Source: Candidatus Omnitrophota bacterium
Lineage (GTDB): Bacteria > Omnitrophota > Gorgyraeia > Zapsychrales > Zapsychraceae
Direction of reading: 5' to 3'
DNA length: 64,000 nucleotides
Assembly: GCA_018062515.1 (NCBI GenBank)
Contig: JAGOSC010000003.1
Coordinates: 14,495 to 78,494 of the forward strand
This document shows positions 1,949 to 39,900 of this stretch, one piece after another; the stretch's first letter is position 1, and each line of letters opens with the position of its first letter. The position numbers and the translations under genes were made by a program. Under the pieces are notes generated by a model. It made no database searches, was not told where the DNA came from, and was given only the letters and a program-made list of their open reading frames with translations.

Positions 1949-1960
1949 ATTTATCTTCTC

Positions 1961-2650: not shown

Positions 2651-2657
2651 AATAGTA

Positions 2658-10625: not shown

Positions 10626-10631
10626 ATTCTT

Positions 10632-12257: not shown

Positions 12258-12367
12258 CGCTCGTATTATAAGTCTTTTATGAAATTTTGGTTTAAAAAAT
12301 CAAAAGAAGGGAATTTATTAAATCAATATGAAGTTTGGAGTGGATATGGTCGAAGACCCAAGAAAGA

Positions 12368-12808
12368 TTAAAAATCGGCATATCCCATTCTTCGACATAT
12401 CCCTCCACAAGGGGTACAGAATATGCGTCCGTCATCGAGCAGAACAATTTCATACTCTAAAGTGCCATTGACCATTTTCTGCATTTGGGCGAGAGCCACC
12501 GAACTTGAGCTTCCACAAGAAGCCTGGGCAGGAATAAGAGAAGAGCTAAAATTTTTTAGCGACGGTATTGTAATATCTAATTGAGAACCATCGCTAGCAA
12601 AAACGTCGTTTTCCATCTGATAATCTTTCTGAGCTATCCAGATGGCTCTAAGGACTTGTTCGGCTTCCTGATTTTCCGTACGCCTAAGGGCTAGGCTGTA
12701 ATTAGGAATAATGAGTGAAATCAGAACACTCAATATGACGATAACAGCCATAATTTCATAAAGGCTAAAACCGGCGGAATTTCTAAAATTAAATGAAGAA
12801 TTTATCAT
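12368..12808 (-). CDS. Type IV pilin / pseudopilin-like protein (prepilin N-terminus)
   Basis: GFSLYEIMAVIVILSVL is a class-III signal (G|FxxxE) plus hydrophobic helix. The start is placed at MINSS (12806-12808), with AGGAAAA 8 nt upstream. Confidence 0.65.
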   Translation of the reverse strand: MINSSFNFRNSAGFSLYEIMAVIVILSVLISLIIPNYSLALRRTENQEAEQVLRAIWIAQKDYQMENDVFASDGSQLDITIPSLKNFSSSLIPAQASCGSSSSVALAQMQKMVNGTLEYEIVLLDDGRIFCTPCGGICRRMGYADF

Positions 12809-12926
12809 ATTTTTCCTTTGTGAAACAAGTATAACACGGCCAAATACGCAAAAATAATTAAGATTAAAAATTGTTGGTTTAGTTTGAATCAACGCTGAAA
12901 TTAAGGAAAGGATTATCTGGAAATTG

Positions 12927-14012: not shown

Positions 14013-14430
14013 ACTCTACGCCTCAACTGTTTGATCTGATAATTTCAGATTTTCATCTACGGAATAATAATCACAAGAAATTAATACCAAAAAATGATCC
14101 ATCCACATGTTGACCTCCTAGCGACGGTTCATTCAACTGACCATCGCATTGCGTTGAAAGTATAACACGCCCTCTTTTGTTGACAAGATAGGCGCCTTCA
14201 CTTTCTTTCGACGAGGATCACTTTCAGTAGTTTTCCACAGTTTGGTCATTTTTGAAATTGTCGTAACTCCTTAATTTTGTGTTTATCTTGACTCGAATAA
14301 AAATAAAAACCCGATTAATGAGCATGTGCTTATAAATAAAAAATATTTTTATCCCCTCCTTTTTTTCCTCTCTTTGAAGACAAAGTCAAACTATTGCGTG
14401 TTCCATTGATTTATGATATAAAACCTTTCT

Positions 14431-18802: not shown

Positions 18803-18955
18803 TTTAAAAATTAATCTCGAATATCGAAGTCCGAAATACGAAACAATTTCTAATTTCCGAATAATTAAACAGGTCAAAAACGTTTTAAACATTAAAACAT
18901 TCTGATTTGAGTTATTGTTTCAAATTTCGATATTCGGATTTCGAAATTTCTTTAA
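18803..18955. terminator. Convergent intergenic spacer rich in TTCGAAAT/CGAATATCGAA palindromic words; candidate bidirectional terminator
   Basis: cgaatatcgaa (18818-18828) is complementary to ttcgatattcg (18925-18935), and tttcgaaa palindromes are present. It lies between the mutL stop and the giant-gene stop. Confidence 0.3.
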
Positions 18956-21900: not shown

Positions 21901-24900
21901 TCATACTGTCACCGGTATTGGTTGAAACAACGAAGACCGATCCAACTGGGCTTGTTTTGTTTTGTACGTCTTGTTTAAATGTTGGTTCGGCATTTTGATG
22001 AGAATCACTTCTATACTCGACAGGCTCTTGAGTTTTTCTCGTCGGATGCATGGCCGAGAATTCACCCAAGAATAATTGTTTTAAATAATTAACCATCATG
22101 TCAAACCAAGAGAATAATTGATCAATACGAATTGTGATGACGGTTTCTTCTTCAGTAGCGATCGACGGCAAGAAGAATGGAACTTGTTTCGGTGATCCGA
22201 TGCGCGCTATACGAGAAGATAAGTCTTCCGGTGGTAAAATCATGGATTTAACTGCGTCTGCTAAGAGATTAAGTTTGATTTGTTTAATGTCGCGTTCAGC
22301 GATCATGGCTTGATCGTCGCCTTTTGCCTTTTCGGAAGTCAAATCATGACCTTCAATCTTCGCTTGTGATGGATCAACTAAATGCGCGATCATTTCTTGC
22401 GGTATGACGGCGGTGAACTGTTTATTATCCATTTTATAAAGTTCTAATTCTTTAAACTTAATATTCATCATTTCTGTTAGTTTCTGTAACTGTGCTTTGG
22501 TGCCTACTGCTATATGAGTATACGCTCCAATCTTTTCACCGATCTGCTCGTCGAGAATGACTTTATTCCTATCCCATAGAGAGAATATTGTCTTGACCAA
22601 CTTGACATCACCTAACATAAGATGATCTTGGTCAACTTCAACAAAACCATTTTCCGTAAATGAATGGAAAATACCTTGATGAATAACACCGCCGGAAGTC
22701 GGCTGCACATAATAAGGATTGTCGCTGGCTTCAATTTGCGGATCATGATATCCGGCATTCTCGTCGACTAAACCAAGCATTTTAAGCATCTTGCGTTGTA
22801 TAACCATATTTTGCGCGTCATTCCTTCTTGATTTTTGAACAGGATTATTTGGACCACCGACGACGTGAAGACCAATCAACTCATGCAGCATAGCTTCTGC
22901 TCGTCGTTGATCGGTATATTGTTCGCCGGACATTTCTTTCGGATTTAAACCGATATCTTTCAGGAATCCATCATTTAGATCAGAAGCCTTGGTCACAATA
23001 ACGTTATTGTTATCTTCGTCGGCAAAACCGGCCGGGAATGAACTTTTCATGATGTGTTCAAATGTAATTCTTTGGGCCGGGCTCATACCTTTAAGAATAT
23101 TCAAATCACCTAAACTCTTGAAATCAAGATCAAATTCATTTCCGACGAGGATATCGTTAATATCTGCGATCATTTCTGAGGTGTAATCCTTAAATTCCAA
23201 TTTCTCAATTTCTTCAATAGCGTTTTCCGCGAAGTGAGGAGTCAATTTAGTGATTATCTGGTCATAAATTTTTTGATCAAATAATCGTTGTTGTTCATCC
23301 TTGAACTGGTTCATCATGTTAATGGTTTCCTGAGCACCCAGATTGATCAAGGCTAATACATCAATTGATGAATCATTTGGATCAAGCGCGCGCTTCATCA
23401 TTTCTCTTAGGTCTTTCACCAATGCATGGAAGTTGGCCGTCATTTTCTCTGGTTGAGCGAGCACATCATCCAATCGTTTCACGATAATTTGAGCAGAGCG
23501 GTAATAAGGCGATTGTTCCGGATCTGTTGGATTAATTTCGCTGATCTTGACGGCCGCGCCCATCAATTTCTGCATATATAGATTCCAGACTTGGAAATAT
23601 CCGACAAAATTATTATCGTTGGCGCGTTTGTCGTCGATCTCAAAGGCGCGTTCAAATCCAGCTTTTGTTACCCGCTTGGTTAGAACAGGCGATTTTTTAT
23701 TCTTTGTTTCAATTTTCGTATGGATCACTTCATCATTATTGAAATGAACAAACGCATGCGCTTTTTCCGTTCCCTTAATATCGACTTGTACGACATTAGG
23801 AACGCCGTTCTCATTAATTTCATAAACGGCCCGGCTGACTTTAAGTTGACTGTCAAATGAGTCTTTCACATCTAATTCAAATTGATGATTCTTGTCTGTT
23901 CGGTTCACACGATTATCAAATATGACCAGATCCCGTCCGATTAATGTGAAACTATGCATTAATTTTCTGTATTCTTTCTCAGTTTGATCAAAGAACTTGG
24001 CATCCAAACCTTTTTCATAGCGTTTTGCGTCGATGGTCACACTTTGCGCTAAAATTTGTTTTTCTAAAATTAAATCTCCAGAGTCTTCCACTGTTTTGGT
24101 AATCCATAAAGGTAAGTAAGTACGTTTATTTGTTCCATTTTCTTGGTACTTATATACAAATTGTTTTTGATAAGCAATTCGTCCATTTTGTATCGGTACA
24201 ATTTTACGATTATATTGATCGCTGCCTTCATTGTGCTCAACAAATGTAACAGCGAGGGCATTTTGTGTTAAAGAATTCAGGATCAAATTATTTTCATAAA
24301 CCAATGTTTGACCATTCGGCAAATAGCCTCCGAAGTTTAGTTTGATCGGCTTATATTGATTATTTGCCGACATACTAACAGCATTCGCAGCGACGACGAC
24401 TTGCTGTCCCTCTTCGTTTGTATCGAAGGCCGTGGCTTCGTAAGTTTCAAAACCTGTGCCGGCATCAATGGAAACATTCATAGACGTTGTACTTGATCGG
24501 TTCAAATGCGTGATGATTCTTTGTTCGGTGCTTTCGGTAATCAATTGATTGATTTTCTGATTAACTTCCTTCTCGGTGATGCGTCCAGATTGGCTCTTGG
24601 CGGCGGAAACCACACTATGGATTTGTGATCTGACTTCAAGCGTTTTAAGAATGGTTTCACCTAAAAATCTTAATCGTTTAATATCACCGTCGGCCAATGC
24701 TTGTTTAATATCTCGCCGTAACGTTAAGTTGATGTCAGGATCGTTATGAATACTCATGATGATTTTGGCTTTATTATTATCCAAACGTCCGATACCTGAG
24801 TCTTTCACTAAGTTTGAACGATAAATAAACTGAAGGAATTCAGCTAATGCCGTCGATCCGACAAATATTGTATTAGCTTTTGTTGGCGCATCTCCTCGTA

Positions 24901-27900
24901 TCTTGGCTAAAATATTGGTTCCACCGGAAAGACCTAACTCGACGATGACTAATTCCATGTCTGGGTTATTTTGTGCTTCACGGACTAATTCAATCGCCTT
25001 TCTTTCCTGAAGAACATCCGGCTCGCCACGTAATTTCGCGTCTTCGCCGACGAGAACAATTAATTTTTCTTTATCAAATTTCACTTTTTCACCGTTCATC
25101 AATTCAATTTCTTTGACTCTAAAGACATGATCTGTGCCTTCGACCAAATGACCTGATTTCTTTAATCGTTCAGTTAATTTCTTGAAGCCTAAAGCGTTCC
25201 ACAGAGAAACTAACGTAACTCTGGTATCTTTTGTGTTCATTTCTGGATGAGTTATGGCTTTTGATATGACATCAACAATCGGATCTCCCGGTCTATCGTG
25301 GCTCGCCGGCGTTAAATCAAATTCTATTTTCGCTGATTCCGGAAGACCAGGTTCTTTACCTAAACGGAAAATCCTCATTCCTTGCATTTCCGCCGATAAA
25401 CGCATGGATTCCGCCGTCGCTGTCATACCTATACCACCAGCGACCAAACGATGGACATCTGCCGGTTTGACAGCATTTTCGACTTTTGACAATGCCGCAG
25501 TCAAGTAATGATCCATGCTGAGTTTTTCCATAATAACTATGGCGCGGGCTGTATGAGCATCGCCTGGAATCGTTCCCGGTTGAGAGAATTTATTAGCGGT
25601 CAACATGTAAATACCAAGATCACTATCCGGATCTAGGCCATGAATCGGATTGTCACGGGCAAATATCATTTCGATAAACGCATTCACCTGTTTGATAATT
25701 TCTTCACGAGTTTCCTCAAAAACTTCTTTTCCGTTTTCTTTCAATTTATTTAATTCTTCTTTATATTCTTTAGAGAATTTCGCCAATGGACTTAATTTTT
25801 CGCCATCCTTCACGAAGGAACGAAGAACCGGGCGTCCATATTGGTCTGTATCGAAAATTAATTCTTTTTGGCCTTTAACTTCAGCCAGCATTTTCATGAT
25901 GATTTTTTCTTTGATTTCATCCAGCGGCTTCATCAATTCAAGTTCATGTAGTTTTTCTTTTGCCTCTTTATCGCCGAGCTTAACTTTCGCTTGTAATTCT
26001 TGACGTTCTCTATTTCCCTTAATTAAGTCAGCGGAACGTTCGTTAGCATCTGTTTCGTCGCTGATTTCAAAAACGCGTTTTCCGATAACCTTATTTAATA
26101 TTTTGCGTGAAACTAATTCTTTAGAATCTTTGAAATCTCCGACGTTAATACCGTCCTTAAAGATAAAGTTATCTTTTTGCTTAATACGGCGTATACCGTT
26201 CTTTTCGCGTATTTCTTTCAGCAATGGATGATTCATAAATCGGTCCACTAATTTTTCCGGAATATTTACCAAAATAATTATCTTGCCATTTGTTTTTCTA
26301 TATAACCAGCGGGCAAAAGCGGCCGATAAGTCAGATTTACCAATACCGGCATCGGCGGCGTTAATGTCAAATCGGCCTTTTCCGTTTAAAAACGCGCGGG
26401 CAGATTCCAAAAATACCTTGGCCGCGTGAATCTGAGCCAAGCGGTTTTTGGACAGATCATAGAGTTCAATTCCGCCTTCGCTGACTGGCGTGGATTCCAT
26501 ATCACGTTTAACTTCGACGAGAATTTCGTATAATTCCAAAGTTTCCTTATCCAATTGACTCAAATCTTTCTTCAGTTTAAGTTCTTTAACTTTATTTTCA
26601 TCGTTAAACAGACGTTCCACTTCTTTAGATACTTCAATATAGTGTTCATTGATTTTTTCCGTTGATTTTGTTTCCGTCGGAGTTTTACGAATAGATGATT
26701 CAGCCGCGCCGCGTTTGTTTTCCTTGATGAGCCTTGGATCAAATCGATTAATGAAATTTTTCATTAATGATTTTTTCGATTTCTTGGCGATCATACTTCT
26801 ATCTTTAGTCGACGTCGTTTCTTTTGCTTCCACCTTGGAACTGAACATTTCCTTTAGAATTCTTAACATCTTTTCATACCATGATTCTTTCGGTGGAGTC
26901 GGTGAACCATTCGATGAACCTGAACCTAAAGTACCATTAGATGATGAAGGATTATTACCGCCGTTATTACCTGAAGATAAACCGCCACGACCACCTGTTC
27001 CGAAGAAACCGCCCATAGCCATTGCGGTCATTATGGATACATGTTCGCCGGAATTCATCCAAGTCGTTAAAACGTAACCGGCGACCGCTGAAATAATTAC
27101 CGGTCCGACGGAGTTTCTGTCCAACACTCGTTTGATCTTATAGAATAATTGTTGAGCTGAATCTTTTGTTACACGTTTAGCTTTGCGATGTGTGACGACG
27201 GACGCGATCAAACTGCCTAAAGTTAATAAGATAAATAATACGGAGACAGCCGCCTGATTCTTTTGTCCCGATTCCCCAATCGTAACTCCAGTTTTAGCGA
27301 AATAGGCGCTTTCTCCATAGTTTTGTCGACGAGATGATGTAATAACAGGGGCAAGACCATGAACTTTAGTTTTCGATTCCCCAATCGTATCCTTAGTTTC
27401 ACTATGGTCATTGCCCCTGTTGAAATAAAGGACAGCGTCATTCAGTTTCGATTCCCCAATCTTAACTTTAGTTACACTCAATGAATGTGTGACGCTGCCT
27501 TTAATATTTGTTTCTGAAATTAAGTTGTCTAAATGAATTGATTGTCCTTTAGCCACATTCATCGACGAGATATAGAGCATGAAACCGATCATAAACGGCG
27601 TAAAATACTTCAAAACACGTTTGATCAAGCTTGTTTGTTTCGTCGATGTTTGTTCTAATTCTTTATCAAGACCAGCCTCAATCACAGCTGGAGCATATTC
27701 AATCGGTGTGCCGTCACGTCTGGCTATAAAATAATTCTTGATATGACCAGGGTGATCACGGTCAAAAGCGACAATGGCTTCAACAATATCAGACACATAT
27801 TGGCTTCGATTTTCACTGCTCTTAGGTACAATAAACATCTTTCCTTTAACGAGGCCTAAAGCAATAGCGACGAGACTCAGAGCTGCCGTTCCTTCCACCT

Positions 27901-30900
27901 TAATACCAAACTTTTGATATAGAGCCATGCCGTAATAAGAGTCAATATTTGTCATACGGAAAGCGCCATCCGCATATTCACGTAGGCGATTCATAGCGCC
28001 GGGTTCCGGTGTCGCCGCGTTACCGTCGGAGGCTATCCCTTCATGCATCTCCCCAGTCGTTTCTGTAATCATTTGGATAGGTTCGCCAACTGGAACATTC
28101 TTGTTAGCTTCGAGTGTCATGTAACTCAAATCCGCAGGCGCTGTCGTAAATACGTACAAATGCGCTTGATTAATCATCGTCTTCACTTGAAGCCCGGCGC
28201 CGGCCGCCCAGCCACCTGAACCCATCGGCATAAGCACAACCAATTCACCATCTTTAAACCCTTTTATGGTAAACGATTTACCTTCTTTAAGCGCTGTCCT
28301 GCCAGCTGAATCTCCTTTATCTTTATCAAAATTATTTGGATCATATACTTCACCCGTTTCGGAATTTGTGACTTCATAACCACTCATGATTAAATCTTCC
28401 AACAATTGACGTACAATTTCCAAACCGCATGCCGAGTAACCTGAAAGGACCCATTCATATTTGGTTTTGTCAGCATGGCCGATTTGTAAATTCTCTTCCG
28501 GATTTTCGGCCACTAATTTCTCGACCTCTTCCAAAGCATGCTTATAACTCTTAAATTTGTCGATCAAAGTTCCAATTCCACCGGCACGCTCAATGTTATC
28601 TGCTTTGTGTTTCATAATCGGACCTGAGAAAACCAGGCCTTTCAGCTTCTTAATTGCTGCTTCGAATTTTGCTTCACTTAAACCACCTAATGGTTCTCCG
28701 CTCAATATTTCTTTAAATACATCTCTGGCGGCAAGTTCCTTATAGGTATTAACAAACCACTGATAGCCTTTCTTCTCATAAATTTCTATAACCGCACGTA
28801 CAGCCGTAACCGTGGCCAATCCATGATTACCAGTCGAAACGGCAATAACTTGTTTCGGAATTCTTCCTAAAAGAATGCGGATAAAAACTTCTACTGGCGC
28901 GCGATTTTTGAATGATCCGGTACGGTATAGCCATTCAAATAATTCGACAACAAAACCACTTGTTTCGTCTTTAAATTTCACTTCGACAGGTCGGCCAACA
29001 ATGTCGGATAGAAAATCGTTCATGCCTTTTATTGTGTAAAAATGTGTTACGACTTTAGAAACCATGCCGAATATACGCTGAAGTATTAAGGAAAGTCTAA
29101 CTTTCGCAAGTGTGATACCGCCTTCTTCTCTTCTAGCCTTAGCTTCAGCATGCGATAACGGAGTTAATTCAACATAATCAATTCCTTCTGGTAATTTTGT
29201 CTTTGCTCGACGAATGATATGACGGATGAATAATCCGGCGATAAGCGCTGTTCCAATAATAACAATACCAATAATAATTGTTTCGAAGCTGATCGTAGTT
29301 TTGGCAATCACATCAGAAAGGCTTTGAGCTTGAATACCGACGGCAGCTGAGAGTGATGCCGTCATTGTCGTGAAGAATATAACGAGAGAAATTAATTTAG
29401 ATCCACTATCATTTGATTCGCTATCGGTGGAGGCGTTGAGATCGGCTTCATTTTTGATTGAATCTTCAATAGGTGTTTGCTCAACTTTGCGTGTGCCTTT
29501 GAACACCATCATGCCCAATGGAGGCAATGTCATCGAAATGGAATTTTCACGATCATTGTATGGGATTTTTTCGGAATGTTGTCCTAACTTATTACCTATG
29601 TCACTGCCGCCGTATTTGGCAGAATCACTGTCTAAAATTGGTTCGAATTGACCAGCAAACGGTACACCGACGCGGTAATCGTTATGTACCGTCGGAGTTA
29701 AATTCGCGACAAACACAATCACTTCATCCGGATTATCACCTTTACGGCCAAAACTAATTACACTATGGTCATTATCATTAGCGATAAACTCATATCCGGC
29801 GTAATTCGAATCATATTGGTGAAGGGCTTGCTCATTCTTATATGCACGATTTAGATCGCTGAACCATTGTTGAACGCCGGCATGCAATGGATATTGCGTT
29901 AAGTTGAAATCGATACCTTGGTTATGATTCCATTCGGAATATTGGCCGAATTCTCCGCCCATAAATATTAATTTCTTACCCAACATGGCAAACATTAAAC
30001 CAAATAAAAGTCTTAAGTTCGCAAACCGCTGCCATTCGTCGCCGGGCATTTTGCTGAGTAGTGAAGCTTTCATGTGAACCACTTCATCATGCGACAAGGC
30101 CAGCACATATTTTTCGCCGGTCATGTAGGTAAAGTAGAAGGTCAGATCATTGATGTGATATTTGCGATATATCGAATCACGTTTGAAGAATTTAAGAATA
30201 TCATTCATCCATCCCATGGCCCATTTCAGGTCAAAGCCCAAAGCTTTACTATTATTTGACGCAGTGGATTCAGTAACGCCTGGCCAAGACGTTGATTCTT
30301 CGGCGATCATTAAGACACCCGGGAATTCTTTGTGAACCGTATCATTCAATAGTCTTAAGAAGCGGACAGCCTCGAGATTTTCATTTCCGCCATAAATATT
30401 CGGTTCCCATTCTCCAGCGTTTCGGCCATAATCCAGATGAATCATTGAGGAAACAGCATCGATGCGCATACCGTCGATGTGATAATATTCCAACCAGAAA
30501 TGGACATTGCTTAATAAGAAACTCATCACTTCATGACGTCCATAATTGAAGATCAATGTGCCCCAATCCGGATGTTCACCCTTCGATTTAGAATCATGAC
30601 TATAAAGTTCAGTACCATCGAAGCGGGCTAATCCATGAGCATCTTTCGGGAAATGCGCCGGAACCCAATCAATAATGACGCCAATGCCGGCTTGATGAAG
30701 TTGATCAACCAAATATTTGAAATCATCCGGCGTTCCGTAACGTGATGTCGGAGCGAAATAATTGCTGACTTGATATCCCCATGACGGATAATAATTGTGT
30801 TCGAATACAGGCATCATCTCGACATGGGTAAAGCCCATGGCTTTTACATATGCAACCAGTTCAGCGGCCAATTCACGGTACGTTAAGAATCCTGTTTCTC

Positions 30901-33900
30901 CATTTTCTAGTATTTTCTTTCTGAAAGAACCCAAGTGTATTTCGTAAATTGAAATCGGATGATTGATCGATGTTTCAACTCTATTCTTCATCCATTCCCC
31001 ATCATTCCATGTGTACTTCTTAACATTCACGACTTCAGAGGCTGTGCTATATTCTTTTCCTTCGGTTGGATGTTCGTTGTACTGCGCGTATGGATCCGCT
31101 TTAGTTTGAACTTGACCATCTTTACCGACGACGTGGAATTTATAACGACTTCCTTCTTTCACGCCAGCGATATAAATCGACCATACGCCGCTATCTGTAT
31201 CCAATGTCATTTGATTTGATTCATGTTGGCCATTGTTAAAATCACCGATGACTGAAACGGCCTGAGCATTTGGCGCCCAGACGGCGAAATAAGTACCATA
31301 TACTTTTTGTTCAGTTTCGATTAGATGAGCGCCGAGCTTTTCATAAACGCGGCTATGAGTACCTTCGTGATTGAATAAAAGTTTATCGAATCCGCCGAAT
31401 TGTAAGCTATTGATTTTTTCTTGAACTAGACGAGCTTCTTCATCCAATTCGGTTTGATAGGTAAAGAATTGATCTTCACGTTGGCTGTTGAGTTTATGGG
31501 AAAGGTTGAATTCAGCGACGGCGCCGATTTCGTGGACCAAGCTGGCGGCGGCTTGAACGTCGGTTAAATATCCGCGTGTTACGTATTCAGGATGATTAGA
31601 TAGGAGTATATATTCTTCATTGTTATATTCATAAACGGTAGCTAAAAATCCTTTGAATGGACCGGCGCGGACATAACCGGCGCTAACCATCGCACTCAAT
31701 CGTTCAGCCATGGCTTTGTAACCGTGACTATATAAATAATCAAGCGCAATCGTAACGGCTGCATCATTGATCATTATCGTGGCCAAACGATTAATATCAT
31801 TCTTTCTCGTTCTTTCTCTTATTTCTCTGAGAATAGAAATAACTTTTAGCGTTAAGCCTTCTGCTTTTAATCTCCAATCCCAATTGTTCACCGTTGTGTT
31901 AGGCTTATTCATTCTGGCTTCTCCGCCCAAACCAAGCACATCTTGCATTTGAACAATCGCTGTATTGGCTTTTGATGACATCGCAATCTGAATTAAAGCC
32001 AAATGAATATTTTTCTCGTTAATTTCTTTATTCAAGAATTCTTCAATCTCAATTTTTTCTTTAGCCGTGGCATCCGCAATATACCAACCGACTGTCGTGT
32101 TATTATCATGAGTTCCGGGATAAACCACTGTATTTGAATCAACATCACCCAATCCGAACTGAAGAACTTTCATGCCAGGCAAGTTAAATTGTTTTAACAA
32201 GGCTGTTACTTTTGGCGTAATTTTATCTTCCGCGCCTAAATCCTCGGCGATAAACGGCATATCTGGGAAATCTTTTTTCAATTGATTAAACAAGTCGGCT
32301 TGTGGACCGTCGAGCCATTTTCCATTTTTGGCTGTCTCTTCACCAGCTGGAATGGCCCAGTAAGCCACAAACCCGCGGAAATGATCCAATCGAATAATGT
32401 CGAAGAAATTAAGTTGATGGCGTAAACGGGCAACCCACCAGGCATAATTATTGTTCTTAAGCACATCCCAACGATAAAGCGGATTACCCCAAATTTGTCC
32501 AGTTTTACTAAACGCATCAGGCGGAACTCCAGCTTTAAACTTGAGCTGATTGTTTTCAGCCAGATCAAAATACTCACGGTTAACCCAAACATCGGCGCTG
32601 TCATGGCTGACAAACATTGGGACATCTCCGATAAGACGGACATTATTTTTAGAAGCATAGCTCTTCAATTCCTTCATTTGTTTGTACAACATGAATTGTA
32701 CAAACATGACTTCTTGAATATTGTCTTTATGCTTTCGCTGATATTTCTTGATCGCCGTTTTATTTCTATTTCTTACATCTTCTTTCCAATCCCACCATGG
32801 TTTTAATTCATTATTTTCTTTGAGAGTTCTGAATAAAGCGTAATCTTGCAACCAATCATCATTATTGGCGATAAATGTTTTAAATTCTTTTTTGTTAGCC
32901 GTTGATTTGAAGCGTTGATAGGCAATTTTTAATAAACGCTTTTTGAATTGGACAACAGCTTCATAGTCGACGAAGTTTTCATCGCCGGATTTAAAATCAG
33001 ATATTTCTTCTTCCGTCAAGAATCCGTATTCAACCAATTTTTCTAAACTGATCAATAACGGATTTAAGGCAAAGGCTGAATCGCTCAAATACGGTGAATG
33101 TTTGGTATAACCATCCGTCGGTGATAATGGAAGCATTTGCCAAATATGTTGTTTGGCTTTGGCTAAAAGATCAATAAATAGATACGCAGCCGGTCCAAAA
33201 TCTCCAATACCATGACGTGATGGCAATGATGTCATGGACAACAATACGCCGCTTTCTTTCGCTTCCGTCACGCGCTTGACTTCTTTACGGACCGTCACTC
33301 GGGTCGGCATTTTCTCGCCGGGAACTGGACGGGCTGCATCTTTTCTGACTGGTTTTAACTCCAATTCCAAGACTAAGTAACCCTGCGGATTTAAGATCAC
33401 TGTTGAGTTCTCAGTGAATGGATATTGTTCTTCACTACTTTCAAGACTGGTCCACAGGCCATTATTCTTCTCAGAAATATTCCATTCAGCTGGATTTAAG
33501 TTGAGCGTGAATGTTTGTGTTTCTTCTGAACGATTCACAATAACTAATCCCTGTTTCTGTCCGAGTTTTCGCTGGAAGACAAGTATGCCGTCTGGCAACC
33601 GACCGGTTACAATTTTATTAATTTCACCATTGCTCCATAAATCTGTACGGGTTTTGGGCAACCAATAATCATAAAATCTTCTTACATCAGGATTATTGGT
33701 TTCATTTTCAGGATGTCGTGTTACATACGTAGCGGTTGGTTTTTCCTTTGATCGTCCGTCGCGTTGACCAGAATTGATCATCACCATACCAGGTATCGTC
33801 ATCATGATGATCGCAGCAGCCATTTGCTGTTCTGTCGTCAAGAAGCTGGCTATACGTCGAGAAGGATCGTCATGATTTTCTAAGAAATGAACCGTGCGAG

Positions 33901-36900
33901 ATAAATAATCTAAAGTCGTTCTATCACGATTGGTTAAATAATCCCACAATTCGTGTGTCGATTGTTGTCCGTCGACGAGAATGTCAAACACATGTTTGTC
34001 ATAGGTATAATCAGATCCCAATTCTTGTAAATATTTCTGCAAGAAATATGATTCAGAAACGAAAATAGCATTCTTATAACCTTTCTTTAGTTCATTTAAT
34101 AATTCCGCAAAAACTTCCGTAGAAACCAATTTTTTGCCGCCATTCGTATGCAAAAATCCGTTAAGTTTTTCTTTTAACAATAATTCGGCCATATCGATTC
34201 GGAATCCGCCGCCATTAGTTAAGCCAAGAATATGTTTCAAGACCTTAATCATGTGTTCTCTTAATTCCGGATTGGTCCAATCTAACTCAACGGTATCTAT
34301 CCACGGCGCGCTGTTTGGCCCTTCTTGTCCATGGAGAAACGCTCTTGGACCATGGATCGTATCAGCGATGAAATATCGATTGTTATATTTCATGGCATCT
34401 TTACGATTCTTCATATAATCCCCGAGTCTAAGTGCCGTCAACCCTAACGCTTTTAATTTTTCCAAGCTGATAGAAACGAACCACTCTGGATTGGAGTAGA
34501 TCCATGATGAATCGGCAGCCATATGATTTGGAACAAAGTCGACGATGACTTTCAAGCCAGCGGCATTGGCACGTTTCACTAATTTACGGAATGATTGTTC
34601 CGTTCCTAATTCTTCATTGATCGTGTAATCCTTAATGCTATAAGCTGAACCGATTCGTTTTTCATCCCACATTTTATTGAACTTGACCGTAAAGTCGCCG
34701 GTTTGCCAAATACCCATCATCCAAACGATGTTAAAGCCTTCTTTGCGTAAATTCTTCAACATCTTCGTCGAGACTTGATCGAAACGAAGGCCTTTTTCAC
34801 GGGCATTCCATAAATACATATTGGCGCCTTGGGTTTTGATTTCTTCATCAACATTGATTTTAGATTTCAAGATCGTTGCCAACGCTTCGTCATTCAGATT
34901 GACTGAATGGTCACCCTTCTTAATCGCTTCAACCTTGGCAAAAATTTTGCGATTATGTTCAGCGTGGATTTCAGCGGCGGCCATGATGGCTTCTTGTTTG
35001 GCCAATTCAACTAATTCTGAATTATCCATTTCCGGTGATTCCTTACGTACTCTTTCATAGGCCTTCCAGAATGTTTCTGCGAAAACCTCGTCAGTTTTGC
35101 GGGCTAATGCAAGAAGTTTTTTCATTTGACCGATTGTCGGCAGGACACGTTTATTTTGAATAGGATCGTAAATTCCAGATTTAAGATGGTCGTAAACGAA
35201 TAGATACTCTGATTTACGATCAAAGTTGGTGGAAATTAGACTGAATTTGCTAATTCTGTTTGACTCTTCAATATATGGACCAAATTCAGGCGTGGTTGCG
35301 TAGATTTTAATAATTTCTTCTTCTGTATAATTCTTATTCGGGTTCTTTTCTTTAAGAATATTTCTAATGAATTGCATCCATCTATGATCGAAAATCATCG
35401 CCGGCGGAGCGTTGGATGAACCATTATTTCTATTCTTATTTTCTTTAACCTGTTTACGATTTTCCGTCGCTGAGTGAAGTGCGGTGTACATCTTTTTACC
35501 CATCCAAACAAACGGGCCGGCAAAACCGACAAAAATTAAGTACCATTTATTCTTTCTTAATTGTTCATTCTTGATGAAGAAGTCTGGTTTGTTAACGGCT
35601 GACGTATAGAAAACACTGAAATATTGTGTTGAAATACCGTCGATGGCGACGGCAAATGAAGCTAAGACTGGATGCTGAACGATGAAGCTGCGTACGATTG
35701 AATGTATACGTGTCATCCAATAGGCTTCAAATTGTTTAGCACCGACTTTTCCAGCTTCTTCTTTCAATCTTTCGATGTTTCCACGGACAAATCTAACCAT
35801 ATTGGTATAACCAAATGTTCGTAATCGAACCATGGTCATGATACCAGCAATTCTTAAGGCGGTTGTCACCGCTTCTTCTATACCTGTTGATTGACCGCCA
35901 AATAAACTTGGAGCTAGATGACTTACCATCCATACTATGGCCGCAATTCCCGTCGTGGCGACGACTGCAAATTTAACATCCTTGATAAACTCCTCTTTAT
36001 CAAATGCTTTGGATAATTTAATTGTTCGGGCTTTATCCATCATTCCCATAAGATCCACTGCAACCATAAATGCGCTGACTGACAGAATTAAATATGTTAA
36101 ATCTAAATCTTTCGGCGCGATGACGGTGAAGTAAACCCAGCTGAACGCTCCCATGATCAAACCTAATGGGAAGGCCGCCACGATTTGTTTCTTGATAATG
36201 TCCTGACCGCCGATCCATTGACCAGAAAAGTCCGTGGCTGCCATGAACATACCGAAGATGATAATGTTAGCGACCGGTAAAGCGACGACGAGCGTCAATA
36301 ATCCGAAGAGATAACCGTAGGTTAACAAGGCTAAAGCTGAAATAGCAGAAACACTGACCAGGGCTTTGAATAATACATTCTTGGTCCGTTTGTTTTTCTG
36401 AACAGAATTATTCTTTTGATCGTCGACTCCATTGCTCGCGGCATTGTCCGTCAATAGTTTGGATTGTTCCGCTTTAGCCAACGCGTTATTTTTGTTTATT
36501 TGTTCTATTTCTTGAGCCGTAAACAATGGTTCAATGAACGGCTGGAATCGAGCAGGAACTGCCTTTGAACCATTCTTTAGAGAGCCAAACAAACTTCCCA
36601 AATATGTTTCAACATTAAAGACATCCATGGTTTGTTTTAATTTAATTCCTGATTGGCGAGAAAGAAGTTCCGCGCGGTCCTTTAATTGTTTCAGACTATC
36701 GTCAGTAACGATAAACATGCGGTGACGTCGGCCGCTCAAGATATTTTTGTTCAACTGATCCGCGCCATATACCTTGAATCTCTTTTTATCTTTATCATCT
36801 TTCTTCTTGGTCATCATCATGAAAGCGATATAAAGCGAATGCTTCCACAAAATTTCTTTAACCATCTTGTCAAAACCTCTTTTCTCAGCGCGTTTCTGCA

Positions 36901-39900
36901 ATTTACTGCTGTTGACCGAATACCCGTTAGAGATTCCTTTGTTTATTTCATGTTCTATCTTTGTTTTGTCTAATTCACTAAAGTTAAAATTCTCAATAAT
37001 TTTCTCGATATACTTGTTCAGCACTCTCAGTTTTTCTAAGTTAATAACATTATCTTCTTTAACCAAACTTAAAATCTGCATAATAATAGCCAAATGTCCG
37101 CCTACTTCTGGAAAAGTATTATAATAATAGGCCTTTAATGACATCGGAAGATTATGGCGGTATTGAAAATACAACATAATCGGCACACGAATAAGCAGCG
37201 CCACAGCCAGCGAGACAATTAAATATGAAATAATTGGCGCTAATAAAGTTAGCAGAACACGTTCCCCTACTAAATTATTTACCGTAAGATACGTTCCAAT
37301 CGACATACCGAAAACCTTTAAAAAGGTAGTGAATACCTTCAACCCTGTGAAAATTTTAAAGATTTTCCAATACTGACCAATTTGCTTACGTGACAATTCT
37401 TTTTTCTTAAGAGCCAAAACAATAACAAGACTAAGAAGTTTCCTTATAGAATTAATCTTCTTTATTGTGACCCGTGTGGTGCCTTTTAATATTGAGAATG
37501 AGCCAACCAAAACCAGCGCTAAGACTGCGGTCAACAGCAAGCCAGGTATAAATTCAGAGGTGATGCCGTCACCTTCAGTTTTTTCCGATTCCCCAATCGT
37601 TTCAACTTTAGTAATTGTTGATGACTCGGCATCACCTCTTCCTTCAGATTTCTTGGAGACAGCGTCGTTTTCTATTGTTTCCGATTCCCCAATCGTCACT
37701 TTAGTTTTTGCAAAAGAACGATCGCTGTCTCCAATATGGCGCGTATCTGAAATATTTTTCTGAGAGTCTACAGAGGTGATGCCGATAACTTTAGTTTTTC
37801 CGATTCCCCAACCGTTAATAACTTTAGTTTTATCTAAATCGACATCACCTCTGTAAATGAATGTGAAGACAGCATCAAGCTTTTCAGTTTTTTCCGATTC
37901 CCCAATCGTATTAACTTTAGTTTCTGTAAACGAACGGCTGACACTGCCTTCAATAGATTGTGTTGCTTGAGAATTTACAGGGATGATGCCGCCAATGTTT
38001 CCGATTCCCCAATCGTTAACTTTAGTTTTGTCTAATGAACGGGCATCATCCCTAGAGTTTGTGGAGACAGTGTCAGCGTTTTCAGTTTTTTCCGATTCCC
38101 CAATCGTATTAACTTTAGTTTCTGTAAATGAACCGCCGACGCTGTCTCCAATATTTATTGTGACGAAAAGCACAAATGTAATTAAAGTGGCTGCTGTAAA
38201 GCGTGCAGCTTTCTTAAATATTGCGCGGACAACGCCCATAACTGTTGTATTTCCGATTCCCCAATCGTTAATAACTTTAGTTTTTAAAGAACGATGGGCG
38301 TTGTCTGCGATATGTTTTATGTTTGAAATGTTTGTTGGTAGATATTGAGTGGATGTTTCGATCGTGCGGATGGTGAAGGCGTAAAACTTGAATACAACAC
38401 CATTTCGATCAACTAAAACGTTCAACCGGGCTAACCAGCTTAACAATTGGATCAGAACACCTTTACCCGCAATTTCTTTTTCTTTCAAATCATTTGAATT
38501 TTCAGCGGCGTAAACAGGTGTCGCGGCAAATGGATTCAATTTGCTTAATAATGTAAAAATGGTCGGCATCACTGGCAACACTGGTGTAGGCGCAGCTGGT
38601 AATGTCGTCGGAACGTTTACAGGAATCGTCGAATCTAAATGAGCCGGAATGTTTGTTTTGATCTTCTTAATTTCTTGTGCTTTATCTAAAATCTTATTTT
38701 CTTTAGTTTTATTAATTTGTTTTCGAAGTTTTACAACAGCAGCGATTGAAACAGCGACAATGATGAACGCTTTGATCACAATCGGGCTGAGGAAGAATGT
38801 CGCGACGGCCAGCAATATGATTGGACCGCGGTCATGTATTCCCAGCTCATCTTTAAAATAAACATCCCTGATCTCAACTATTTCAACTTCATCAATTTTC
38901 TCTAATGCCTTTCTTAAACCATTTTCCGCGTCTTCTATTGAAGTAGTTATCGGCATTTCCAGTCTCAATTCCAACAAGACTTCGTCATTATTATCTTCTC
39001 GAGCAATAACTGTATTATCGATATTGATTTTCAACTCACTTATGGTCGCTGATATTTTATTCATCAGTCCTTTGGCATCCGTTACCGTAATATAAATATC
39101 CCGTTTAATTGTTTGATCAGGCCGTATGGGAATATTTCTATCTTCTCTCAAATCTTGTTTTAACCGATTTATGCGTTTATCGAGATCGAGATCAGTAATC
39201 TCATTAGATATGATAATTTCAATTATTTTCTTTCCTTGTCTTTTTGACTTTTTAGTAGAAACATTATATATAAAGATATCGCCAAAAATACCCGTCGCTA
39301 ACTTTTGCATACCAGGCCGGTCTAACAAATCTATCTTGATAATTATTTTATGTTTCCCGGATTTGTTAACAGTAACGTCAATCTCATCCCAGGACTTCAA
39401 TTTTTCTGTAACGACCGCTGGCTTCAATTCACCGAGTGCGACGGCCTGGAACACGCCATCAGCGGTAAATTTAATACCCTTAATTTTTAATTCAGATAAT
39501 AAGTCTTGAGCTGAATAGTTCAGACGGTCGGTTATCACTTGATTATTTAAATCGATGCCCTCTTGAATTAATGCTTGTCTTCCGGTTTCATTGAGAATTT
39601 TAATAATCGTTTCCCGGATTATATTTCCGTTACCGTTACTGTTAAACGCGGCCAGTCCAACGATAACTTCTTTAATTTCATTGAGCTTCAAAGATTCTTT
39701 GACCTGTTCCAAAACTTGATTAGTTACGCTTGTTCCAAGACCTAATTTTTGCAATAATCCCAATTGCGGTAAGCCAATATTTTTAAGTTCTTGCATACCA
39801 AGCGCGTAATAATTTGATTTTGGATGAGCAATCTCCATAACCCTAATCTTTGTACGCCATGATTTTGCCGAATTCAATATAGCTCTTTGCATGGCCGGAT

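What the first reader, a model, noticed from the sequence alone, without database searches (positions are those of the whole stretch)
29490..34900. Contiguous alpha-glucan (glycogen-type) toolkit inside the giant protein: GH13 amylase, GH77 amylomaltase, GlgB branching enzyme
Three full-length enzymes that are normally separate cytoplasmic proteins occur back to back in one frame, each with intact signature motifs. The GH13 carries GFRIDMA region II, the GH77 carries the GTHDN motif, and the GlgB has its CBM48 and all four GH13_9 conserved regions. Together with the GT48 module this makes the protein a polysaccharide synthesis and remodelling array.
Basis: partly seen in the sequence, partly recalled or inferred. 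Interest (0 to 1): 0.75.

Follow-up and report, generated by a model that had tools for sequence, protein, structure and literature searches.

The report
Glycogen-enzyme trio inside giant membrane protein
Three normally separate glycogen/maltodextrin enzymes (an amylase, an amylomaltase and a branching enzyme) are fused in one reading frame inside a giant membrane protein of over 15,000 amino acids, probably from an Omnitrophota bacterium; this is a real, conserved example of a phenomenon already described for that phylum.

Summary
Window 29,492-34,852 (minus strand) encodes, in one uninterrupted frame of an ORF of at least 15,014 aa, three modules plus one unassigned domain:
- an AmyB-like GH13 module
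- a full GH77 amylomaltase (MalQ)
- a conserved orphan domain of about 165 aa
- a full GH13_9 branching enzyme (CBM48 + catalytic + C domain)

All three Asp/Glu/Asp catalytic triads are intact. Codon usage matches the rest of the ORF. There are no repeats or extra promoter/terminator-like signals at the junctions.

The same order is colinear (54% identity over 2,014 aa) in a giant ORF of a Candidatus Omnitrophota MAG, where a GT5 glycogen synthase follows directly. This makes misassembly very unlikely.

The block lies in a loop of about 2,030 aa with no predicted membrane helix. That loop ends in a membrane hairpin whose charge pattern, together with the nucleotide-sugar-dependent GlgA in the relative's equivalent loop, points to the cytoplasmic face. 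This is inferred, not shown.

The most likely function is membrane-tethered intracellular alpha-glucan (glycogen/maltodextrin) turnover.

GT48 lies 3,400 aa away, behind many predicted membrane segments, and by family assignment makes beta-glucan.

Sugar and glycogen modules in giant Omnitrophota proteins are already reported, so this is a new member of a known kind.

The parts
18956..64000 (-). Giant ORF of at least 15,014 aa. The stop codon is at 18956-18958 and the N-terminus lies beyond the window edge. It hosts the alpha-glucan block.
   Evidence: Pfam mosaic: SLT, M23, GT48, DUF218, GH13, GH77, GlgB, PALP. Many hydrophobic segments by hydropathy.
35498..36379 (-). Cluster of about 7 hydrophobic (predicted transmembrane) segments, aa 9208-9501, immediately upstream of the loop. 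It is conserved with the Omnitrophota relative.
   Evidence: Hydropathy scan. Part of the 42%-identity colinear stretch aa 8616-9532 vs L002. No Pfam or NCBIfam family. Its helix parity could not be resolved.
29396..35497 (-). Loop of about 2,030 aa with no predicted transmembrane helix (aa 9502-11535). It carries the whole alpha-glucan block and is inferred to be cytoplasmic.
   Evidence: No hydrophobic segment at or above the threshold between aa 9501 and 11536. The equivalent loop in L002 also holds GlgA and a sugar-phosphate isomerase fold, again with no TM segment.
34853..35497 (-). Pre-GH13 region (aa 9502-9716). Function unknown; weakly conserved.
   Evidence: 18-42% identity to L002 in 50-aa windows. 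No family hit.
33350..34852 (-). GH13 module, AmyB-like (aa 9717-10217): catalytic (beta/alpha)8 domain plus C-terminal beta-sandwich. Catalytic D9936 (nt 34193-34195), E9983 (nt 34052-34054), D10044 (nt 33869-33871).
   Evidence: PF00128 140 bits. 4gkl AmyB E 1e-29. Invariant catalytic columns in the 33-sequence alignment. AF2 pLDDT 85, pTM 0.85. Foldseek top hit 4gkl, TM 0.80.
31859..33238 (-). GH77 4-alpha-glucanotransferase (MalQ/amylomaltase) module, aa 10255-10714. Catalytic D10539 (nt 32384-32386), E10586 (nt 32243-32245), D10632 (nt 32105-32107).
   Evidence: PF02446 540 bits, full-length. NF011080 610 > 477 and TIGR00217 359 > 206. 1tz7 E 1.7e-121; triad aligned to D293/E340/D395 of 2x1i.
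31364..31858 (-). Orphan conserved domain between GH77 and GlgB (aa 10715-10879).
   Evidence: 44-60% identity to L002, as high as the catalytic domains. No homologues in the 5.8-billion-protein search. No Pfam or NCBIfam hit. The single-sequence AF2 model is unreliable (pLDDT 49).
29492..31363 (-). GH13_9 1,4-alpha-glucan branching enzyme (GlgB) module, aa 10880-11503: CBM48 + catalytic + Alpha-amylase_C. Catalytic D11181 (nt 30458-30460), E11234 (nt 30299-30301), D11305 (nt 30086-30088).
   Evidence: NF003811 866.6 > 741 and TIGR01515 779 > 464. 5gqw E 1.2e-198. CBM_48 82 bits and Alpha-amylase_C 85 bits.
29222..29395 (-). Two-helix membrane hairpin (aa 11536-11593) that closes the loop, followed by RHIIRRAKTK.
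   Evidence: Hydropathy 1.96 and 2.72. The C-terminal flank is K/R-rich and the connecting loop K/R-poor. L002 shows the same pattern more clearly: outer flanks with 4 and 6 K/R, acidic connecting loop.

Best explanation
The block is a genuine, in-frame, catalytically competent alpha-glucan module. It consists of an AmyB-like GH13, a GH77 amylomaltase, a conserved orphan domain and a GlgB branching enzyme. It is embedded in a long loop without membrane helices in a giant, multi-pass membrane protein of the kind found in Omnitrophota.

The loop most probably faces the cytoplasm, so the three enzymes are tethered side by side at the inner face of the membrane. There they would handle intracellular alpha-1,4/alpha-1,6-glucan:
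- The GH13 cuts alpha-1,4-glucans or maltodextrins into short maltooligosaccharides.
- The amylomaltase disproportionates these into longer chains plus glucose.
- The branching enzyme converts the long chains into a soluble, glycogen-like polymer.

The same set can also remodel stored or acquired glycogen. In the nearest relative a GT5 glycogen synthase is appended directly after GlgB, making that loop a near-complete glycogen unit.

Shown: domain identity, completeness, intact catalytic residues, one frame, conservation of order in a second lineage.

Inferred: cytoplasmic sidedness, the direction of flux (storage versus breakdown), that the polypeptide is made and used as one piece, and the Omnitrophota origin of the window itself.
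For: - Domain identity and completeness.
- Catalytic triads aligned to solved enzymes.
- GH13 catalytic columns invariant in the clade.
- Confident GH13 model whose closest fold is AmyB.
- One frame with no stops, and codon usage and GC3 indistinguishable from the rest of the ORF (block RSCU distance 0.21, against 0.22-0.40 for 600-codon windows of the ORF).
- No junction repeats and no excess promoter/terminator-like sites.
- Colinear homologue in the Candidatus Omnitrophota MAG JBFWOS010000003.1 (54% identity over 2,014 aa, inside an open frame of more than 7,276 aa), with all triads kept and GT5 (KKGGQGDV motif) + GT1 directly downstream.
- No hydrophobic segment in the L002 loop that holds Glucosamine_iso, GH13, GH77, GlgB and GlgA.
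- A third giant ORF (L004/L005) has the same GH13 type and a GT5 in one TM-free stretch.
- The hairpin after the loop has K/R-rich outer flanks and a K/R-poor or acidic connecting loop in L002, and on its C-terminal side in the window.
- From established knowledge: GlgA needs ADP/UDP-glucose, which is a cytoplasmic metabolite.
- Literature: sugar-metabolism modules (starch synthase, GT1, PGM) recur in giant Omnitrophota membrane proteins (bioRxiv 10.64898/2026.06.07.730766; bioRxiv 10.1101/2023.11.21.568195).
Against: - Sidedness rests on a crude hydropathy scan and the positive-inside rule. The upstream helix cluster gives contradictory charge patterns and its parity could not be resolved.
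- In the window, the N-terminal flank of the hairpin is acidic rather than basic.
- The 2026 preprint reports that DeepTMHMM places the metabolic content of at least one giant on the outer face. West-Roberts et al. also got 'extracellular' calls for sugar-phosphate enzymes, while doubting them.
- No GlgA or GlgC was found in the window's part of the protein, so net synthesis from nucleotide sugars is not encoded here.
- The GH13's specificity is unknown: it passes no equivalog model and is at most 34% identical to any database protein.
- There is no expression or processing evidence.
- The organism is not identified directly. The only evidence is the nearest homologue and the giant-gene phenotype.
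Confidence: 0.6

Rival explanations
1. Surface CAZyme array. The loop is extracytoplasmic, and the GH13/GH77/GlgB modules act on alpha-glucans of prey cells or of the environment (released glycogen, starch, capsular glucan). They would pre-digest and rearrange these for uptake, as proposed for the V. archaeovorus giant protein.
For: - The same protein carries SLT and M23 peptidoglycan hydrolases, which must act outside the cytoplasm.
- The literature proposes that Omnitrophota giant proteins degrade surface polysaccharides of target cells (PMC10066038).
- The literature also reports outer-face predictions for some multi-enzyme giants.
- If the weaker first helix of the hairpin (hydropathy 1.96, acidic N-flank) is not a true transmembrane helix, the loop would lie on the opposite side from RHIIRRAKTK.
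Against: - A branching enzyme and a disproportionating enzyme have no obvious use outside the cell.
- In the orthologous loop of L002, GlgA (nucleotide-sugar dependent) and a sugar-phosphate isomerase fold share the same TM-free stretch.
- The L002 hairpin shows a clear in-out-in charge pattern.
- No signal peptide or carbohydrate-binding/adhesion modules flank the block.
- The closest characterised GH13, AmyB, is to my knowledge an intracellular enzyme.
Confidence: 0.15
2. Coat or capsule synthesis. The enzymes build a branched alpha-glucan in the cytoplasm, and the adjacent conserved transmembrane cluster exports it to form an extracellular alpha-glucan layer. This would be analogous to mycobacterial capsular alpha-glucan, which is made by cytosolic GlgB-dependent routes.
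For: - The upstream helix cluster and the block are conserved together with L002 (42% and 54% identity, colinear).
- The giant also has a GT48-like synthase with its own helix bundles, which suggests the protein handles exported glucans.
- L002 adds GlgA.
Against: - The helix cluster matches no transporter or exporter family.
- The idea is entirely inferential.
- MalQ and an amylase are more typical of turnover or salvage than of capsule synthesis.
Confidence: 0.1
3. Inert passengers. The modules are recently captured operon genes fused by loss of stop codons. They are carried along without a role specific to the giant protein, or are decaying.
For: - Giant Omnitrophota proteins are highly mosaic and mostly sequence-unique.
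- Module content differs between relatives: GlgA and Glucosamine_iso in L002 only; GH13 + GT5 without GH77/GlgB in L005.
- The order GH13-MalQ-GlgB-GlgA resembles an operon.
Against: - All nine catalytic residues and the conserved regions are intact in both lineages despite 46% sequence divergence.
- The linker domain is as conserved as the catalytic domains.
- There are no frameshifts or stops.
- Codon usage is fully ameliorated.
Confidence: 0.08
4. Assembly artefact. A glycogen operon from another organism was spliced into the giant ORF by misassembly.
For: - Metagenome-derived giant genes are hard to assemble.
- The only independent assembly of this organism found (Logan contig L001) covers just window 8664-20100 and breaks in the C-terminal repeats. 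The block itself therefore has no second assembly from the same organism.
Against: - There are no stop codons, intergenic gaps or start contexts between modules.
- Composition and codon usage are the same as the rest of the ORF.
- There are no repeats at the junctions.
- The same order, in frame, including the flanking non-CAZy sequence and the orphan linker, is present in an unrelated MAG assembly.
Confidence: 0.02

Closest known systems
Giant multi-enzyme membrane proteins of Omnitrophota ('multi-enzyme metabolic clusters', bioRxiv 10.64898/2026.06.07.730766; 'Archaeovorins', West-Roberts et al., bioRxiv 10.1101/2023.11.21.568195)
   Same: - An ORF of more than 10,000 aa with many transmembrane helices.
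- A mosaic of unrelated enzyme domains, including SLT and a sugar/glycogen-metabolism module (starch synthase GT5, GT1, PGM reported in the literature).
- The closest homologue of the block is in a Candidatus Omnitrophota MAG.
   Different: - Neither paper's main text, nor the one held supplement, mentions GH13, GH77, CBM48/GlgB or GT48.
- No dockerin, HEAT or TPR hit was found here, so it is not an Archaeovorin in the strict sense.
- No GT5 was found in the window's part.
Bifunctional alpha-glucan enzyme fusions: MalQ-GlgB proteins of ~1,100-1,360 aa (IMG name 'alpha-1,4-glucan 6-glycosyltransferase/4-alpha-glucanotransferase'), GlgB-GlgA fusions, and GlgX/MalQ (NCBIfam NF011083)
   Same: - The order GH77 then GlgB in one polypeptide occurs in P0004 and P0010 (a 127-member cluster).
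- GlgB-GT5 occurs in P0006.
- GlgX/MalQ occurs in P0001.
   Different: - Those are soluble two-domain proteins with short linkers (40-70 aa).
- Here there are three enzymes plus a conserved 165-aa orphan domain, inside a giant membrane protein.
- The giant's GH77 is only 38% identical to that of P0004.
- P0010 uses a different GH77 type with an N-terminal MalQ_N domain.
- The fusions therefore look independent.
Classical bacterial glycogen/maltodextrin pathway (GlgC, GlgA, GlgB, GlgP, GlgX, MalQ as separate cytoplasmic proteins)
   Same: The GlgB and MalQ modules pass the equivalog or family cut-offs of the standalone enzymes and keep the catalytic residues.
   Different: - The enzymes are covalently fused and membrane-tethered.
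- No GlgC, GlgA, GlgP or GlgX is present in the window.
- An AmyB-like GH13 takes the position where a phosphorylase or debranching enzyme might be expected.
AmyB, the 'noncanonic maltogenic alpha-amylase' of Thermotoga neapolitana (PDB 4gkl)
   Same: Best sequence match (E 1e-29) and best structural match (TM 0.80) for the first module. CSR I-IV and the catalytic triad align.
   Different: - Only ~21% identity.
- The module has an insertion of ~55 aa between CSR I and CSR II relative to 4gkl.
- Substrate specificity is therefore not transferable.

Membership tests
GH13 (alpha-amylase family), first module | Significant match to the family catalytic-domain profile | tested here: met
   PF00128 140 bits against a cut-off of 22.
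GH13 (alpha-amylase family), first module | Conserved regions I-IV with the catalytic Asp (II), Glu (III) and Asp (IV), plus His (I, IV) and Arg (II) | tested here: met
   DFVPNH / GFRIDMA / VSESY / FLENHDD. The corresponding columns are invariant in 33 clade members.
GH13 (alpha-amylase family), first module | (beta/alpha)8 barrel with a C-terminal beta-sandwich domain | tested here: met
   AF2 model with pLDDT 85 and pTM 0.85. The top Foldseek hits are all GH13; the best is 4gkl at TM 0.80.
GH13 (alpha-amylase family), first module | Assignment to a functionally typed subfamily or specificity (amylase, cyclomaltodextrinase, GlgE, TreS and so on) | tested here: not met
   No NCBIfam equivalog cut-off is reached; the best is 63.7 bits against 540. 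The nearest database proteins are at most 34% identical and carry only generic names such as glycosidase or alpha-amylase family glycosyl hydrolase.
GH77 4-alpha-glucanotransferase (MalQ/amylomaltase) | Full-length match above curated cut-offs | tested here: met
   PF02446 540 bits, profile positions 2-462 of 465. NF011080 610 > 477 and TIGR00217 359 > 206.
GH77 4-alpha-glucanotransferase (MalQ/amylomaltase) | Catalytic Asp nucleophile, Glu acid/base and Asp transition-state stabiliser (D293/E340/D395 in Thermus numbering) | tested here: met
   RLDHFRGF / IAEDLG / GTHDN align to positions 293, 340 and 395 of 2x1i.
GH77 4-alpha-glucanotransferase (MalQ/amylomaltase) | Disproportionating activity on maltooligosaccharides | not testable with these tools
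   Needs an enzyme assay.
GH13_9 branching enzyme (GlgB) | Equivalog-level match | tested here: met
   NF003811 866.6 > 741, NF008967 847 > 577, TIGR01515 779 > 464. 5gqw E 1.2e-198.
GH13_9 branching enzyme (GlgB) | Architecture of CBM48 + catalytic domain + C-terminal all-beta domain | tested here: met
   CBM_48 82 bits and Alpha-amylase_C 85 bits flank the catalytic domain. No clear separate N1 domain is present; the only GlgB_N hit overlaps CBM48. This is the short-N-terminus type.
GH13_9 branching enzyme (GlgB) | Catalytic Asp/Glu/Asp in regions II, III and IV | tested here: met
   MRIDAV / IAEEST / LSHDEV align with the 5gqw motifs. They are conserved in L002 as RVDAV / AEEST / AHDEV.
Omnitrophota giant multi-enzyme membrane proteins | ORF of 10,000 aa or more with multiple transmembrane helices | tested here: met
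   At least 15,014 aa. Dozens of hydrophobic segments at or above 1.6 on the Kyte-Doolittle scale; this is a crude method.
Omnitrophota giant multi-enzyme membrane proteins | Many distinct enzyme Pfams tiling the polypeptide, including a sugar-metabolism module | tested here: met
   SLT, M23, GT48, DUF218, GH13, GH77, CBM48/GlgB and PALP.
Omnitrophota giant multi-enzyme membrane proteins | Host genome belongs to phylum Omnitrophota | tested here: inconclusive
   The only close homologue of the block is in a MAG titled Candidatus Omnitrophota bacterium. The window has no rRNA or other marker that I could place. The exact-match contig from SRR11088468 carries no taxonomy.
Archaeovorin (West-Roberts et al.) | Dockerin, HEAT and TPR repeat content | tested here: not met
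   No such Pfam hit at E <= 0.001 in the 15,014 aa available. The N-terminal part lies outside the window.

The most novel reading that the evidence does not exclude
The conserved unit aa 8616-11535 (a helix cluster, then GH13, MalQ, an orphan domain and GlgB) may be a coupled membrane conduit and enzyme line. Prey-derived maltodextrins or glycogen fragments would enter through the helix cluster. The tethered MalQ + GlgB pair would then convert them directly into the predator's own branched storage glucan, without nucleotide sugars. Under this reading these fused modules are the cell's only copies of these enzymes, meaning core carbon-storage metabolism has been physically relocated into the giant protein.
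Probability: 0.15. Interest if true: 0.75.

Novelty: new member of a known kind. Interest (0 to 1): 0.45.

Why it matters
Giant proteins of the uncultured, probably predatory or episymbiotic Omnitrophota are poorly understood. A key open question in the two available preprints is whether their embedded metabolic enzymes sit inside or outside the cell.

This block is a clean test case:
- The three enzymes are well understood, have simple assays and have intact active sites.
- They are conserved in order across two lineages.
- They lie in one helix-free loop bounded by a recognisable hairpin.

Determining its sidedness and activity would show whether such giants act as cytoplasmic 'metabolic scaffolds' that channel storage-glucan synthesis at the membrane, or as surface enzyme arrays. 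It also documents a three-enzyme alpha-glucan fusion with an orphan conserved domain, which may interest people who make designer glucans with enzymes.

Tried and rejected
1. A word-indexed homologue search with the whole 1,803-aa block returned only two bifunctional fusions (GlgX/MalQ and MalQ-GlgP). The 8,000-candidate limit was probably saturated, so it says nothing about giant homologues.

2. The exhaustive representative search found no giant-length close relative. The longest hit was 2,684 aa, and it mostly returned ordinary GlgBs. Giant ORFs appear to be under-represented in the protein libraries. The DNA-level scans were what found the relatives.

3. Orphan linker domain:
   - No homologues.
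   - The single-sequence AF2 model had pLDDT 49 and is unusable.

4. A Shine-Dalgarno analysis of internal ATGs, meant to test internal initiation, was uninformative because ordinary genes in the window mostly lack such motifs as well.

5. Counting helix parity from the peptidoglycan-hydrolase domains to the block, and applying the positive-inside rule to the upstream helix cluster, gave contradictory results. I therefore rest sidedness on the downstream hairpin and on the enzyme content of the L002 loop.

6. I considered a GlgE-like maltosyltransferase identity for the first GH13. GlgE structures appear among the Foldseek hits at TM ~0.64, but no GlgE family model matched, so I rejected it.

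7. I considered that the two GH13-type domains are recent internal duplicates. There is no self-similarity at E < 1e-6.

8. Searches for the run accession SRR11088468 and of the paper supplements gave nothing.

9. Standalone glg genes elsewhere in the genome could not be checked.

Full report
**What is in the sequence.**

The minus strand carries one open reading frame from the stop codon at nt 18956 to the window edge. It encodes at least 15,014 aa, and the N-terminus is missing. I number residues from the window edge; aa i begins at nt 64000-3(i-1).

Pfam finds these domains along the ORF:
- SLT, aa ~2253-2347
- Peptidase_M23, aa ~3746-3836
- a nearly full-length GT48 Glucan_synthase match, aa ~5533-6285 (94.5 bits against a cut-off of 37.2)
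- DUF218
- a weak ACT domain
- the block under review
- a divergent PLP-enzyme (Ser/Thr-dehydratase-like) fold

The rest of the window holds ordinary housekeeping genes. The Pfam families precomputed for the identical contig show mutS and mutL and an RsmB/F-type methyltransferase. My own reading of the translations adds the queuosine genes, murI, rph and rdgB. No glycogen genes lie outside the giant ORF.

**Checking the observation.**

It contains four units.

1. A GH13 catalytic domain with a C-terminal beta-sandwich, aa 9717-10217 (PF00128, 140 bits).
2. A complete GH77 domain, aa 10255-10714.
   - PF02446 540 bits, profile positions 2-462 of 465.
   - NCBIfam NF011080 610 > 477; TIGR00217 malQ 359 > 206.
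3. A 165-aa stretch with no family assignment, aa 10715-10879.
4. A complete branching enzyme, aa 10880-11503.
   - CBM48, catalytic domain and Alpha-amylase_C are all present.
   - NF003811 866.6 > 741; TIGR01515 779 > 464.

Against solved structures:
- The GlgB module matches Cyanothece GlgB 5gqw at E 1e-198.
- The GH77 module matches Aquifex amylomaltase 1tz7 at E 2e-121.
- The first GH13 matches the 'noncanonic maltogenic alpha-amylase' AmyB of Thermotoga neapolitana, 4gkl, at E 1e-29.

It fails to refute.
- GH77 D10539/E10586/D10632 align with positions 293/340/395 of Thermus amylomaltase.
- GlgB D11181/E11234/D11305 sit in MRIDAV / IAEEST / LSHDEV, aligned with the Cyanothece motifs.
- GH13 D9936/E9983/D10044, together with the His and Arg of regions I, II and IV, are invariant columns in an alignment of the module with 32 of its nearest database relatives.

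An AlphaFold2 model of the GH13 module is confident (pLDDT 85, pTM 0.85). Its best structural neighbour is again AmyB, at TM 0.80 normalised to the target.

The specificity of this first module remains open. It reaches no NCBIfam equivalog threshold, and its nearest database proteins are at most 34% identical and carry only generic names.

**Artefact or real?**

- GC, GC3 and relative synonymous codon usage of the block are the same as in the rest of the ORF. The RSCU distance of the block to the whole ORF is 0.21; 600-codon windows of the ORF range from 0.22 to 0.40.
- There are no direct repeats at the junctions.
- Promoter-like and terminator-like matches are not above shuffled expectation.
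- The two GH13-type domains are not recent duplicates of one another.
- An independent short-read assembly (Logan, SRR11088468) is 100% identical to window 8664-20100. It breaks just inside the giant gene, where a triplicated C-terminal repeat begins, so it does not reach the block.

The decisive evidence is comparative. A scan of species-representative genomes with the GH13/GH77 junction region found one close relative, contig JBFWOS010000003.1 of a MAG titled Candidatus Omnitrophota bacterium.
- The 21.8-kb locus fetched (L002) is a single open frame of 7,276 aa, open at both ends.
- It is colinear with the window protein in two stretches. L002 aa 2077-2920 matches window aa 8616-9532 at 42% identity. 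L002 aa 3183-5151 matches window aa 9530-11505 at 54% identity over 2,014 columns.
- The second stretch runs through GH13, GH77, the unassigned linker and GlgB.
- All catalytic motifs are kept in L002.
- The linker is as conserved as the enzymes (44-60% in 50-aa windows), so it is a real domain. It has no detectable homologues elsewhere and no usable structure model.

A misassembled operon is therefore very unlikely.

**How the module varies between relatives.**

- In L002, a 260-aa Glucosamine_iso/6-phosphogluconolactonase fold is inserted before the GH13. A GT5 starch/glycogen synthase follows GlgB directly, with the KKGGQGDV form of the nucleotide-sugar motif plus a GT1 domain. A HAD phosphatase-like fold and an alpha/beta-hydrolase come after that.
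- In the window protein, GlgB is instead followed by a two-helix hairpin and the PLP fold. No GT5 is detectable in the 15,014 aa available.
- A metagenome scan found a third giant ORF (L004 and L005 are identical; more than 7,169 aa). It has the same GH13 type (45% identity) and a GT5 about 700 aa downstream, but no GH77 or GlgB within reach.
- Soluble two-enzyme fusions exist in the protein libraries: GH77-GlgB (P0004; P0010, whose 127-member cluster IMG names as a bifunctional enzyme), GlgB-GT5 (P0006) and GlgX/MalQ (P0001).
- A 2,610-aa partial protein (P0018) combines PRK, a methyltransferase, GlgB and PPDK, and looks like a fragment of another giant.
- The giant's GH77 is only 38% identical to that of P0004. 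P0010 uses a different GH77 type with an N-terminal MalQ_N domain. Neither has the 165-aa linker domain. The fusions therefore look independent.

**Topology.**

A Kyte-Doolittle scan finds no hydrophobic segment between aa 9501 and 11536. The block therefore sits in one loop of about 2,030 aa.

The loop is closed by two helices, aa 11536-11556 and 11572-11593, followed by RHIIRRAKTK.
- In L002 the equivalent hairpin has K/R-rich outer flanks (4 and 6 K/R in 20 residues) and an acidic connecting loop. This is the in-out-in pattern.
- In the window only the C-terminal flank is clearly basic.

The L002 loop of about 2,950 aa, also without a hydrophobic segment, contains GlgA and a sugar-phosphate isomerase fold. 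Their substrates, nucleotide sugars and sugar phosphates, are cytoplasmic metabolites; this is established biochemistry and was not tested here. The L005 stretch holding GH13 and GT5 is likewise free of predicted helices.

Against this, the helix cluster upstream of the loop gives contradictory positive-inside signals, and I could not resolve its parity. No dedicated topology predictor was available. I put cytoplasmic sidedness at roughly 75%.

The literature is itself divided.
- West-Roberts et al. obtained extracellular predictions for sugar-phosphate enzymes in Archaeovorins but suspected missed helices.
- The 2026 Omnitrophota preprint considers the sugar module compatible with the cytoplasmic face for TM-only proteins. 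It reports an outer-face prediction for its largest multi-enzyme giant.

**Most likely mechanism.**

The three activities form a coherent alpha-glucan unit.
- An AmyB-like hydrolase generates or trims maltooligosaccharides.
- MalQ disproportionates them into long alpha-1,4 chains plus glucose.
- GlgB turns those chains into branched, soluble glycogen-like polymer.

This route can build or remodel glycogen from maltodextrins without nucleotide sugars. In L002 the appended GlgA adds the nucleotide-sugar route.

Tethering the enzymes next to each other at the membrane would favour channelling. That would suit a small cell with feast-and-famine access to sugars, as inferred for Omnitrophota (PMC10066038).

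What is shown is identity, integrity, fusion and conservation. Sidedness, flux direction and translation as one polypeptide are inferred.

Rivals:
- a surface array acting on prey or environmental alpha-glucan (about 0.15)
- cytoplasmic synthesis coupled to export of an alpha-glucan coat through the conserved helix cluster (about 0.10)
- functionally idle captured operon genes (about 0.08)
- misassembly (about 0.02)

**Comparison with what is known, and novelty.**

Each module is a normal member of its family (see the membership table); only the first GH13 lacks a typed specificity. Fusions of alpha-glucan enzymes are known. Giant Omnitrophota membrane proteins with a sugar-metabolism module (starch synthase, GT1, PGM) have been catalogued.

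Neither paper's text, nor the one held supplement, mentions GH13, GH77, CBM48/GlgB or GT48. The specific trio, with its orphan linker domain and its conservation across two lineages, therefore appears undescribed. It is still another instance of a described phenomenon, not a new kind of system, so I rate it a new member of a known kind with moderate interest.

- GT48 is confirmed as a domain.
- It lies 3,400 aa away behind many predicted helices.
- By family assignment it makes a different polymer.
- The protein also carries unrelated enzymes.

**Limits.**

- The organism is not identified directly.
- The N-terminal part of the protein is outside the window.
- The rest of the genome could not be searched for standalone glg genes.
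- Topology rests on crude methods.
- No expression data exist.

Noticed in passing
window 45146-47404 (-), aa ~5533-6285: Nearly full-length match to eukaryote-type GT48 1,3-beta-glucan synthase (PF02364, 94.5 bits against a cut-off of 37.2, profile positions 4-744 of 819), flanked by dense clusters of hydrophobic helices. As far as I know GT48 is unusual in bacteria.
   Followed up: partly
window 56960-57244 (-) and 52493-52765 (-): An SLT lytic transglycosylase domain (72.6 bits) and a Peptidase_M23 domain (28.4 bits, just under the 28.7 cut-off) in the same giant ORF. These peptidoglycan hydrolases should act outside the cytoplasm, so the giant protein must expose different loops on different sides of the membrane.
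   Followed up: partly
window 20042-22195 (-), aa 13936-14653: Three tandem copies of a repeat of about 270 aa (45-78% identity) near the C-terminus, containing the motif ...NTGDS..G.DDQA.LA..LDLTRGEPEM...WRNFYD.K..EKDMRYIEQI.QRFKLD.RETWQQY.KDRLNNP.WA. The independent short-read contig L001 ends at nt 20100, inside this repeat region.
   Followed up: partly
window 59273-60589 (-), aa 1138-1576: Internal repeats of about 100-165 aa (47-55% identity), rich in V/E/K/A with an embedded hydrophobic 'ALGFGLVLV' segment. Function unknown.
   Followed up: no
window 37592-38284 (-) and 27242-27508 (-): A short repeated motif (TKVN..GIG / TKV.TIGESEKTE), seen at aa 8573-8803 and again at aa 12165-12253. 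It sits between a signal-peptide-like helix and a strong transmembrane helix, suggesting a recurring 'hairpin cassette' whose short exposed segment carries these repeats. L002 aa 2077-2176 matches both copies.
   Followed up: no
window 31364-31858 (-), aa 10715-10879: An orphan domain between GH77 and GlgB. It is as conserved with the Omnitrophota relative as the enzymes (54% identity), yet has no homologue in 5.8 billion proteins and no family assignment.
   Followed up: yes
window 27815-28933 (-), aa ~11690-12062: A divergent PLP-dependent (Ser/Thr-dehydratase-like) fold directly after the hairpin. PALP scores 42-44 bits for the C-terminal half only. Weak NCBIfam hits to EutB/dehydratases fall around the ...STGNHG... 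segment. The domain appears split by insertions.
   Followed up: partly
L002 (JBFWOS010000003.1, 602645-624474), whole locus: A giant ORF open at both ends (more than 7,276 aa) in a Candidatus Omnitrophota MAG. Domain order: M23, Glucosamine_iso/6PGL, GH13, GH77, GlgB, GT5+GT1 (GlgA), HAD/S6PP-like, alpha/beta-hydrolase. This is a more complete glycogen unit than in the window.
   Followed up: yes
L005 (Ga0154332_113) and L004 (Ga0209211_10000300), identical sequence: A third giant ORF (more than 7,169 aa) found in two metagenomes. It has the same AmyB-like GH13 type (45% identity), a GT5 about 700 aa downstream and a weak GH15 glucoamylase-like hit upstream, but no GH77 or GlgB in the 21.5 kb fetched.
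   Followed up: partly
P0018 (NCBI TBR15226.1, 2,610 aa, partial): A protein fragment combining PRK/uridine kinase, a methyltransferase, GlgB and the PPDK N-terminal domain. It is probably a piece of another giant multi-enzyme protein that carries a branching enzyme.
   Followed up: no
window 45594-46112 (-): A 172-aa ORF on the same strand but in another frame, lying wholly inside the giant gene in the GT48 region. It is most likely a chance ORF.
   Followed up: no
window 1544-3688 (-): Four adjacent or overlapping small genes that, from my reading of the translations, look like the queuosine precursor set (queF, queE, queC, queD). Next to them are murI and an amidase-like lipoprotein. These are ordinary housekeeping genes, and I did not test them with a family search.
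   Followed up: no
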